A stretch of DNA of 64,000 nt from assembly GCA_964016885.1 (NCBI GenBank), contig OZ024741.1, positions 285,200,001 to 285,264,000 on the forward strand, written 5' to 3'. A program made the translations under genes and the position numbers. Below the pieces are notes generated by a model. The model made no database searches. It was not told the DNA's origin and worked only from the letters and a program-made list of their open reading frames with translations. This stretch comes from Eledone cirrhosa. Taxonomy: Eukaryota. Below are positions 37,721 to 55,187 of this stretch, in pieces (position 1 is the first letter of the stretch; each line of letters begins with the position of its first letter).

Positions 37721-37794
<74 letters not shown>
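35996..37794. repeat. (TA)n / (TAGATATATT)n compound microsatellite field
   Basis: Directly visible. Confidence 0.95.
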
Positions 37795-37796
<2 letters not shown>

Positions 37797-37799
37797 CGC

Positions 37800-38016
37800 C
37801 AGACAGTCCACGCTGTAATGTGGCCGTGTAGGCAACACGGTAAAAACCTCCCAGCCCCACACTGTAAATGTGGTTGGTGTTAGGAAGGGCATCCAACTGT
37901 AGAAAACCCGCCAGACAGTCCTATGCGAGCAAGACAACCACTCTTGCCTCAAGTGGGAAAACTCCCGTCCAAACCCATGCAAGCATGGAACACGGACGTT
38001 AAACGATGATGATGAT
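37800..38016 (+). mobile_element. RTE-tailed short element, near-identical to 7566-7785 in opposite orientation
   Basis: Ends catgcaagcatggaacacggacgttaaacgatgatgatgat. Confidence 0.8.
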
Positions 38017-38251
38017 ATACATTGTGCGAAACATCACGTGGTATTGTGATTTTGTCAACTAATATATATATATATTCAAAATATTCTCATAACCAAAATA
38101 TATATTTTATTATACATATTTCAAAGGTACAATGGTGTCTCAGTAGGTTTTGAGTAAGGTTTTGATTAATCAATTCCGGTAGTGGTAGTCACTACCACTA
38201 CAGGAATTGAATAATCAAAATTTTAGTGGTATGTCGCATATCCAATCTCTT

Positions 38252-38320
38252 ATATATTTTATCTGATGAAAACCTACTTAAACACCATTGTACCTTTGAA
38301 ATATGTATAATAAAATATAT
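38252..38320 (+). ncRNA. Type I hammerhead ribozyme motif
   Basis: atatattttat-CTGATGA-aaa..tac...gta..ttt-GAAA-t-atgt-a-TA-ataaaatatat; perfect 11-bp stem I. Confidence 0.65.
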
Positions 38321-38454
38321 TTGGTTATGAGAATATTTTTCAGTTATTAATATTTTGAATAATATTAAATACTCCAGATAAATCTGTCGAGTGCTTCTAA
38401 TCTATTGTTAAATTGAATTCGTTGAATAATCAACGAACCATATAAACTTTTGGT

Positions 38455-38527
<73 letters not shown>

Positions 38528-41500
38528 GCATTGTGTGAAGCATCACGTGGTATTGTGATTTTGTCAACTAATTTATATATACATCACAGTTTATTACATA
38601 TTTTCTACACAAATGCTTCAAGTGTGAGTAAAATATTTTGTTGTTTGCTGTTGTAAATATTTAAAAAAGTTTTTTCTGTCTCTTGAGTTTCATTTTATTG
38701 GACTCTTTTTGCTCTCATTTATTTCATACATATGTATATATATGCACATGCATAAATTTAATAAATGCAGGATTACCTTAATACATGTCTGCATACATAC
38801 ATGGTTACATTAATACATATGTCTACATTCATACATACATACTTACATACATATGTATATGTGTACACAAACACACACACGTATGTGTGTGAGTAATGCA
38901 TGCGTTGGACCTCCATCAGTTTTTAAACATTTGACAAACACATGTACCTTTAACATAGTTCTCAGGAAGATTCAGTTTGGCACAGTGTGTGACAAGGCTG
39001 ATCCATTGTATTAACACAATTTTGCCAGCTGAGTGGACTGAAGCAACATGAAATAAAGAAGTTTGCTCAAGGGCACAATGTGCCACTGGGAGGTGAACTT
39101 ATGACCTTACAATCATGAACTGAACGACACAACCACCAAGTCTCTCTTTCTCTCTCTCTCTCACACACGTGCACGACAGCTGTTAAGATGCTATCGAGTA
39201 TAACCACTTTTTGCATTCCTTCATCCTTCTAATGATGCACAATCAGGTGAGGAATATATACACTGGCTCCACCTATCATACACTAATACCTAGTCAACAT
39301 AGAATAGAATAGCACAGGTAACTGGAAAATAACAGCTGCTACAACTTATACTATCTGACGAAAGTACACAAGTCGTAGTATTTTATTGTCAAAGATGGAC
39401 GTGTTACTCTGATTGCAGCAACTTGAAGCTTTATTGTTTATATGTGGCTGCAAAAAGCCTGGCTTTTATTTCTTGCAGAGAGCTAGAGGTGCGGCAGACT
39501 GAGATACAAAATAAAGAAAAGTCTACACCAGTACTAAACTGGGAATTTATTTATTGTTCCACAACCAAGGAAGGAAAATCGAAGTTGACCTCGAAGGGAT
39601 TTAAATTGAGAGTATACATCTGACACGAACAGCGCAAAAAGCATTCTACTGGATGCTCTAACAATTCAGCCAATTCGATATTGTCCTATTGCAATATGTG
39701 TGTATGGGCCTGCAGCTTGTAAGGCCGGCGTCGTGACATACAAGTCATGGTTACTTTAAACCTCGTAGAGCCTATTCGTTTTCGATGTCTGAATACAGCC
39801 GAGTTCTTTCAGCAAAGGGGAGAGTGTGAGAGGAAGTAAGAAAGACATAGAGGAAAAATCGAACTTAGTACTGACTGGTACTTATTTTTTTTATCGAGTT
39901 CAAAACTATGAAAAGCAAATTTGGCCTCAGCGTGATTTGAATTCAGAGAATGCTGTACGTTAGAACGAATACTGCAAAGCATTCTATCTGATGATCTAAT
40001 GACTCTGCCAATGTCATACTGTTCTACGTCGAATAGCTTTATTGGTGCCAAAAGTTGAATCCCTGAATTGCAAGCCGTAGTATCACTGCATACATCCCAC
40101 AGCTTGGTATTCTGTGTTACGACTTATACTTTGTTCCTATATACAGCTTCATGACACAGTGCAGTAAAAAGTGAAAGGTTGCGAACTTGCTTTTACATTG
40201 TTTGTATACTTTACTGTCAGTTCCTAAATAATCGCAGGATATTGCTGAGTTACCTCCCATGGATCTGTTTGATGTTCTGTTAATTATCTCCCATTGAAAT
40301 GTTCGGCAAGGGAGTTAACTCTTCATCGGCTGTTTATATCAAGCCTGTTATTTGAGTTGAAGCTGATTATTATATAAGGTTGAAGTTTCTTTTATTTATT
40401 ATTGCGTTAAGAACATGATCTTTTAACACCAGTGTCCACATGGAGAGGCACGACAGACTGTATTGATATATTTATATACTTTGTATTTCAGTTTTATTTG
40501 ATTCAGCATATAGAAAAATGAAAATTTATTGAGGTTTTATTTCGAAGTTCAAAAGATTATGTGGTTTAATTTTTCATAGCTACAGTCCTGTTCTGTAGTA
40601 GAAATAAAGATGTGTCAACACAGTCCCTCATCTTTTCAGTAGGCAATGCCAGCGAAACAGTCACATAGAGTGCCTGAACCTTAAAATACCACAATGTTAT
40701 GCAAATTTAAACAATAAAATATATAATTTTCTGCGATTGATAAATAAATTACAAAATATCTTTACTACGTAACAAAGATCCAAAATTATATTTTACGACG
40801 TCTAACATGATTCGCGTAGCTGAATCTGGACTGTGTAGCATAAAATGCAAGTATAGTAACTTTTTCAATATGGTTCGAAAAAGAAATGTCGGAAGCTAGG
40901 TTTGTCAGTTTGCCAAACTATAAGTTGAAACATTTTTATTTAACGAAAGATGTACACATTGTAGGGCGCTAAATACCCGGACTTAGGTCTCATGAGGTGA
41001 CATATTTAGATTTATTTTCATCTTTAATATGCTCACGCTTAAAAGACTGGCTGATTGGTTGATCATCGCATAAAATGTTGATAGTTGCGTTCTTTTGTGT
41101 CTCAAATTTCAGAATTCAAATTTCGCTAAGACTAGGTTTTCCTGTTACCCTTACAGTGTAAAAAAATAAAATAAAGTGCCAGTTAAGTTCTGATGTCGAT
41201 ATAATCGATTATATTCCTCTCTCGATTTCTGCTACTTGTGTTAAAAAAAAATCAATATATTGAAACTTAAATGTCTCTTGGTTTCTATTTATATTCTCCA
41301 GTAGAAATCAAGGTGTATAAGATGTCGTTAAGCTCAACTTTGCCATTGATCCTTCTGGGAGTCGATAAAATATAGTATTAGGAAATTACTGAGGTCGATT
41401 TAATCGACAAATCCCCGCCTCCAAAAATGTTGGCTTTGAGCCTAAATTAGGAACAAATATTTTAAAATATGTTGGGTATTTTTTTTATTGTTGGTGGTTT

Positions 41501-54817: not shown

Positions 54818-54851
<34 letters not shown>

Positions 54852-55187
54852 AACAATGCGTTTTATGGTTTGTTGATTATTCAACAAAGTTAATTTTACA
54901 ACAGATTAGAAGCACTCAACATATTTTTCTGGAGTATCATTAATATTAATAATATTAATAAATGGAAAATATCTTTATAAAATCATATTTATTTTATTAT
55001 ACGTATTTCAAGGGTACTAATATGTATAATAAAATAAATATGATTTTATAAAGATATTTTCCATTTATTAATATTATTAATATTATATATTTATATATAT
55101 AGATCAGGAATTTTACCCGCCCTAGATATATATATATATATATATATAAGTATTTATATATGTGTATGTATGCATATATAGATATGT

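What the first reader, a model, noticed from the sequence alone, without database searches (positions are those of the whole stretch)
38020..38572. Nested architecture: direct repeats, inverted arms, inner hairpin and hammerhead
44-bp direct repeats (38020-38063, 38529-38572) enclose about 72-bp inverted arms (38077-38150 / 38269-38339), which enclose a 30-bp hairpin (38160-38220). The right arm completes a hammerhead with an 11-bp stem I. The left arm is the antisense of only its 3' part and stops at the CUGAUGA box. Inference: the antisense arm could switch the ribozyme off, or it records fold-back during reverse transcription.
Basis: partly seen in the sequence, partly recalled or inferred. 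Interest (0 to 1): 0.7.

Follow-up and report, generated by a model that had tools for sequence, protein, structure and literature searches.

The report
Twin-primed Penelope retrotransposon end-piece
This nested-looking palindrome is a decayed mini-insertion of a known kind of jumping gene (Hydra-clade Penelope-like element); its two arms were likely copied separately from the element's capped RNA, starting at two hairpin-marked sites, rather than forming a ribozyme off-switch.

Summary
All described repeats and the hammerhead motif are present, but they are not four nested layers. The 'arms' and 'inner hairpin' are one head-to-head duplicate (38073-38189 / 38191-38455) of the terminal repeat (pLTR) of a Hydra-clade Penelope-like retrotransposon, a family with at least 641 core matches here. 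The stop at CUGAUGA is a 40-nt deletion in this copy. The direct repeat is unique host DNA, flush in 1 of 184 insertions, likely a long target duplication.

Across copies, arms end at +59 or +150 from the ribozyme cut. 76 of 79 classifiable pairs join one of each, and each end lies about 8 nt before a conserved RCTC/GAGY hairpin. Inner ends pile up at one base with an extra G (40 of 75), a likely cap signature. In 15 of 37 pairs the arms are not nested, so simple fold-back fails. Best model: two target-primed starts on opposite DNA strands copy an uncleaved, capped RNA.

The architecture is known. The mechanism is inferred and differs from the published antisense self-priming idea. The scan reached similar readings on other families of this genome. 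No cleavage or RNA data were obtained.

The parts
38017..38075 (+). Left copy of host direct repeat (core 38020-38063); likely long target-site duplication
   Evidence: 59 nt at 92% to 38526-38584; 23-nt core has 2 exact genomic matches, both here, plus 1 one-mismatch hit elsewhere; flush long repeat in 1 of 106 and 0 of 78 insertions
38073..38189 (-). Short (S) arm: inverted pLTR copy from the +59 end to the 5' start, with a 17-nt and a net 40-nt deletion
38190..38190 (.). One-base apex: complement of a likely cap-derived G of the left arm, or the templated -1 C of the right arm (ambiguous here)
   Evidence: family-wide G excess
38191..38455 (+). Long (L) arm: pLTR from the likely transcription start (-118) to the +150 end
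38252..38320 (+). Type I hammerhead motif: stem I 11 bp, CUGAUGA, stem II 38270-77/38290-97 with C-C mismatch plus a private G>C at 38274, GAAA, self-complementary stem III 38301-08, predicted cut after 38309
   Evidence: cleavage untested
38371..38396 (+). Hairpin motif 1 (ACTC-loop-GAGT-GCTT), 8 nt 3' of the short-arm end; likely marks reverse-transcription start S
38399..38408 (+). 5' strand of a predicted long-range helix; its partner lies after hairpin 2, beyond the +150 end, and is not in this copy
38456..38525 (.). (TA)n run at the long-arm junction
   Evidence: TA run beside 69 of 81 S ends and 34 of 39 L ends
38526..38584 (+). Right copy of host direct repeat

Best explanation
38073-38455 is a two-armed, non-coding insertion of the terminal repeat of a Hydra-clade Penelope-like retrotransposon, likely made by two separate target-primed reverse-transcription starts on opposite DNA strands. 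Shown: family membership, two discrete 3' ends (+59, +150), one-short-one-long pairing, TA targets, a fixed 5' end with an extra G, and twin hairpins behind both ends. Inferred: the endonuclease nicks both strands in TA-rich DNA; one enzyme starts about 8 nt before hairpin 1 and another about 8 nt before hairpin 2 of a capped RNA that the hammerhead has not cut; both copy toward the cap; the two cDNA ends are joined head to head, often by microhomology. Both arms come from the same subfamily, plausibly the same RNA. The hammerhead is a passenger of the pLTR and is weakened here by a stem II mutation.
For: Linkage to a Hydra-type ORF: the pLTR ends ORF-bearing elements, and in tandems it runs on into the ORF start. 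Motifs RWR, DKT, YRDD, CxCx5C, CxxC-E and N-CxH are found and match the clade definition (PMC8557442 section 11; supplement alignment compared by eye). Pairing: of 88 position-ordered loci, 37 S+L, 3 S+S, 0 L+L, 2 unclassified pairs, 37 solo S, 9 solo L (chi2 29.6, p 5e-8). In a second set of 78: 39 S+L, 0 S+S, 0 L+L, 8 unclassified pairs, 31 solo. Not nested: 15 of 37, 5 with no overlap. Cap mark: after TATATAT at the 5' start the extra base is G 40, A 26, C 5, T 4 of 75 (hand count); background G is 3.8%, and among non-A bases p is 2e-8 to 1.5e-5. A 13-position control window gives 8 loci and the hammerhead cut 2 loci. An untemplated G is read as cap copying for L1 (PMC9341517 passages). Same source: 280 of 301 diagnostic sites agree between arms, against 57% in shuffles (max 69% of 2000); 15 of 45 pairs share rare variants, including this copy's G>C at 38274. 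Twin hairpins 93-99 nt apart with a long-range helix of different sequence in a sister family. In vitro, a Poseidon PLE nicks and extends both strands, starts at two internal sites and uses uncleaved RNA (PMC11167929 parts 1-2).
Against: All mechanism is read from genomic fossils; there is no RNA or biochemistry. Arm concordance could also come from gene conversion between arms or from one subfamily being active at a time. L020 has a chimeric arm from a sister family, so one RNA is not the rule in every case. 3 S+S pairs and 1 L+L pair (L006, selected set) break the rule. Read-through past +150 was seen in few copies (4 exact matches; 4 twin-hairpin loci), so hairpin 2 and the helix rest on a small sample, with one sister-family locus. 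Sampling required an exact motif spanning -13..+20, so arms starting at the cut could not be anchors. The long-TSD reading has no second long example and no empty site. Pfam and PDB gave no significant match for the broken ORF pieces.
Confidence: 0.78

Rival explanations
1. Fold-back or self-priming: one cDNA (or an antisense template, as proposed in PMC3846280) snaps back and copies itself, giving the palindrome.
For: 10 of 37 pairs have both arms reaching the start zone, as in this copy. Arms share subfamily alleles and rare variants. Published for head-to-head Penelope palindromes.
Against: 15 of 37 pairs are not nested and 5 do not overlap. The +59 end is equally the end of solo copies and abuts target (TA)n. 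The extra G at the sense 5' end points to a sense, capped template.
Confidence: 0.12
2. A selected antisense switch: the left arm pairs with the hammerhead in a read-through RNA and turns cleavage off.
For: Physically it would: with the left arm present, stem I pairing probability falls from about 0.7 to 0.
Against: The boundary at CUGAUGA is a private deletion; 23 of 37 other short arms keep the box. Arm lengths vary widely. The likely start site excludes the left arm from the RNA. The copy carries decay mutations.
Confidence: 0.03
3. For the direct repeat only: a local tandem duplication of host DNA came first, and the element later inserted in the TA run between the two copies.
For: No other long flush repeat in 183 other insertions; TA runs are the family's target.
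Against: The repeat runs flush to the left junction, and both of its ends lie in short TA tracts. Its divergence (4 of 49) is like that between the arms (6 of about 105).
Confidence: 0.35

Closest known systems
Hydra clade of C-terminal EN+ Penelope-like elements (Craig et al. 2021, PMC8557442; section 11, passages and supplement passages read)
   Same: RW[K/R], DKT, CxCx5C linker, CxxC/CxH around E and N, (TA)n targets, hammerhead in the pLTR, adjacent inverted 5'-truncated copy, optional tail.
   Different: A different family from Hydra-1_Obim (its listed hammerhead differs). Tail about 91 nt rather than 30-40. RWR rather than RWK. About 3.9 kb with a long 3' UTR, against generally under 3 kb.
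Head-to-head Penelope insertions of Adineta vaga (Arkhipova et al. 2013, PMC3846280; passages and Discussion read)
   Same: [quoted passage not shown]
   Different: That paper favours self-priming on an antisense template; the data here favour two target-primed starts on a capped sense RNA. Reported TSDs are 8-10 bp, against a possible 55-59 bp here.
Poseidon PAc internal initiation (Frangieh et al. 2024, PMC11167929; parts 1-2 of 4 read)
   Same: Two internal reverse-transcription starts defining the tail, AT-rich cleavage, both strands extended, predicted dimer, uncleaved RNA as template.
   Different: PAc starts lie inside the ORF in an AC-rich stem-loop; here they lie in the 5' UTR before twin RCTC/GAGY hairpins. 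In the parts read, strand-paired use of the two sites and head-to-head joining are not shown.
Metazoan PLE hammerheads (Cervera and De la Pena 2014, PMC4209133; passages read)
   Same: Type I, long helix II, small palindromic helix III suited to dimers.
   Different: Pair 10.1-11.1 is A-U with no extra base after A9, where that paper reports a highly conserved G-C and an extra base; stem I is 11 bp.
Non-LTR retrozymes (bioRxiv 10.64898/2026.07.22.740005; part 1 of 5 read)
   Same: Non-coding, type I hammerhead, PLE-pLTR related.
   Different: Defined as tandem arrays with at least two hammerhead units; this is a dispersed head-to-head insertion with one intact motif.

Membership tests
Hydra-clade PLE | DKT in place of DKG | tested here: met
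   KSDKTNN in L153, L155, L164, L167 and L032; the other 6 of 10 regex hits are unrelated
Hydra-clade PLE | N-terminal RWK motif | tested here: inconclusive
   RWR variant in 3 of 20 long loci
Hydra-clade PLE | CxCx5C linker before a C-terminal GIY-YIG | tested here: met
   11 of 20 loci; VYKC..YIG in 9 of 20
Hydra-clade PLE | CxxC and CxH beside the conserved E and N; no CCHH | tested here: met
   CxxCNEE in 5 loci, NE..CxH in 4 of 20; CCHH absence judged by eye only
Hydra-clade PLE | (TA)n insertion preference | tested here: met
   69 of 81 and 34 of 39 arm ends
Hydra-clade PLE | RT phylogeny places it in the clade | not tested
   only an eye comparison with the supplement alignment; no tree built
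EN+ PLE insertion | pLTR in partial tandem, adjacent inverted 5'-truncated copy, optional tail | tested here: met
Neptune-clade PLE | DKG and CX2-5CxxC linker with CCHH | tested here: not met
   DKT and CxCx5C found instead
Type I hammerhead ribozyme | Core CUGAnGA / GAAA / UH with three stems | tested here: met
   stem II is weak in this copy (pair probability about 0.1)
Type I hammerhead ribozyme | Compensatory changes in stems | tested here: inconclusive
   A-U/G-C/G-U swaps around a kept C-Y mismatch in sister families; 83% paired against 70% shuffled, 85 of 5000 shuffles reach it, only 6 representatives
Type I hammerhead ribozyme | Conserved G10.1-C11.1 pair | tested here: not met
   A-U in this family
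Type I hammerhead ribozyme | Self-cleavage | not testable with these tools
   needs an in vitro assay
Non-LTR retrozyme | Head-to-tail array of at least two hammerhead-bearing units | tested here: not met
   single intact motif, head-to-head arms

The most novel reading that the evidence does not exclude
Penelope-like elements integrate through an asymmetric pair of enzymes docked on twin RNA hairpins held together by a long-range helix. Each enzyme primes from a nick on the opposite DNA strand and copies the same capped, uncleaved RNA. One rule would then explain the PLE tail, the head-to-head inversion and solo pLTRs, replacing antisense self-priming. This copy would additionally show that the two nicks can lie 55-59 bp apart.
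Probability: 0.5. Interest if true: 0.72.

Novelty: new member of a known kind. Interest (0 to 1): 0.45.

Why it matters
The locus itself is ordinary transposon debris. The family statistics bear on a question that PMC8557442 names as open: how PLEs form their inverted and tailed insertions. They give exact predictions for the in vitro system of PMC11167929: one start per strand, about 8 nt before each hairpin, running to the cap, without ribozyme cleavage. My six paper searches listed no paper reporting strict short/long pairing, a cap-derived G or twin hairpins for PLEs. Subscription literature is largely outside that library, and bioRxiv supplements were not available.

Tried and rejected
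Neptune assignment: my first reading from motifs, dropped after testing the Hydra features. Rfam: no hit at gathering score; only sub-threshold miRNA-type matches to the hairpin and the TA run. Pfam and PDB on broken ORF pieces: nothing significant. Long TSD as a family trait: 1 of 106 (the other hit at score 20 or more, L052, is not flush) and 0 of 78 (L204 is two non-flush SINE copies; L184 has a 12-nt flush repeat). Empty-site search: laying runs X1-X4, X21 and X22 was swamped by repeats and no record spanned the site; inconclusive. No RNA holder listed. Hammerhead cut as a 5'-end hotspot: 2 loci only; tested only for TA-joined arms. The 5'-end peak at -105 in BLAST tables is an artefact of the reference copy, resolved by anchored inspection. 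Hidden tiny partner arms in solo copies: none flagged in the 32 solo copies printed, though L120 shows one. The idea that only short ends carry long upstream cDNA did not hold; L-ended long copies exist. Look-up of earlier findings by sequence gave nothing.

Full report
Observation. The window is AT-microsatellite-rich DNA from a 3.0-Gb genome. The direct repeat, outer arms, inner hairpin and hammerhead motif are present at about the stated places. Aligning the two halves shows one inverted duplicate with apex 38190. The left copy lacks the complement of 38226-38268 (3 nt in its place) and 17 nt between two AAAATATT repeats near its outer end. Rfam does not detect the hammerhead; it was found by motif and stem search.

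Family. 38066-38450 has 3152 first-look candidates in the genome (40 scored), and the 34-nt core has 641 exact matches. Two copies extend into long elements with broken RT and GIY-YIG-like frames. In 20 ORF-anchored loci the repeat sits at the 3' end, and in tandems (L153, L155) it runs on about 65 nt (less in L153) into the ORF start. The motifs match the Hydra definition of PMC8557442. The repeat is thus the pLTR and 5' UTR of a Hydra-clade Penelope-like element. That paper already describes an adjacent inverted 5'-truncated copy, an optional tail and TA targeting.

Samples. Positions are relative to the predicted cut (after 38309). Set 1 has 88 loci from the first 100 of 641 core matches, duplicates of paired arms dropped. 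Set 2 has 78 loci from the first 100 of 212 matches to the 5'-start motif, 12 duplicates of set 1 dropped. Both sets favour well-preserved copies.

Outer ends. Arms end at about +59 (short) or +150 (long), beside a TA run in 69 of 81 and 34 of 39 cases. Head-to-head pairs join one short and one long arm in 37 of 40 classifiable pairs of set 1 (chi2 29.6) and 39 of 39 of set 2; 2 and 8 pairs were unclassifiable. Each end lies about 8 nt before an RCTC-loop-GAGY-GCT hairpin whose closing pair varies A-U, G-C or G-U. Four loci hold both hairpins, 93-99 nt apart, each followed by complementary 8-11-nt strands that differ in sequence between this family and a sister family. Sister-family copies end at the same place before hairpin 1. 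The hairpin lead came from earlier scan notes and was tested here.

Inner ends. Many arms begin exactly at AAATC|ACTRCC, about -118. Where a TA run joins there with one extra base, it is G in 40 of 75, A in 26, templated C in 5 and T in 4 (hand count), far above background. A control window gave 8 loci over 13 positions, and the hammerhead cut gave 2 loci. An untemplated G is the recognised sign of cap copying in L1. I infer a capped sense RNA starting at -118, mostly uncleaved when copied, in line with the in vitro result for Poseidon.

Fold-back versus two starts. A snap-back from the long cDNA needs the short arm to lie within the long arm's range. In 15 of 37 pairs it does not, and 5 pairs do not overlap. 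Yet arms of one insertion agree at 280 of 301 subfamily sites (shuffle mean 57%) and differ by 5.1% against 7.2% to other copies (45 pairs). This fits two enzymes on one RNA or on RNAs of one source; that PLE RTs lack RNase H, which would allow recopying, is recalled and comes from no call. Gene conversion is not excluded. L020 carries an arm that is part sister family. The published antisense self-priming idea explains neither the non-overlapping pairs nor the G.

Switch idea. With the left arm included, stem I pairing drops from about 0.7 to 0, as for any long palindrome. But the CUGAUGA boundary is private (23 of 37 short arms keep the box), and the likely start at the apex leaves the left arm out of the RNA. 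The ribozyme here has an intact core, a self-complementary stem III typical of dimer-dependent PLE hammerheads, an A-U first pair in stem II, and a G>C change at 38274 in both arms that widens the stem II mismatch. Activity is untested and likely low.

Direct repeat. It is single-locus host DNA, flush with the left junction, and the only long flush repeat in 184 insertions. Its divergence resembles that of the arms. A long target duplication from two nicks in separate short TA tracts is likelier (about 0.65) than an earlier tandem duplication. If so, the 70-nt TA run on the right arose at or after insertion. No empty site was found.

Verdict. A new family member of a known kind with known architecture. 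The nested regulatory reading is rejected. The interest lies in the family-wide, testable mechanism, which earlier scan notes reached in part on other families of this genome.

Noticed in passing
window 54818-55130: A second, more diverged head-to-head insertion of a related pLTR, apex just 5' of the GAAA half of the hammerhead, stem III TACGTA, no CUGAUGA.
   Followed up: partly
window 37794-38016: A very high-copy SINE-like repeat ending in (GAT)n directly abuts the left direct repeat (depth; internal 16-nt repeat).
   Followed up: no
L020:1753-1960: Chimeric arm: sister-family 3' part joined to this family's 5' part within the shared TATTTTATCTGATGAAA stretch; template switch or later conversion.
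   Followed up: partly
L081 (minus strand, 2517-2810), L017, L026, L094, L098, L123, L145, L165, L168: Several sister pLTR families share stem I and the core but differ in stem II, keeping a C-Y mismatch at the fourth position.
   Followed up: partly
L184 flanks: 12-nt flush direct repeat around a short+long insertion, an ordinary short TSD.
   Followed up: no
L153, L155, L164, L167 (G000 C5, C2, C2, C4): Longest copies of the parent element seen, reaching the ORF start; all frames broken.
   Followed up: partly
L007 and L011 flanks: Short inverted repeats of other sequences around TA runs next to the insertions.
   Followed up: no
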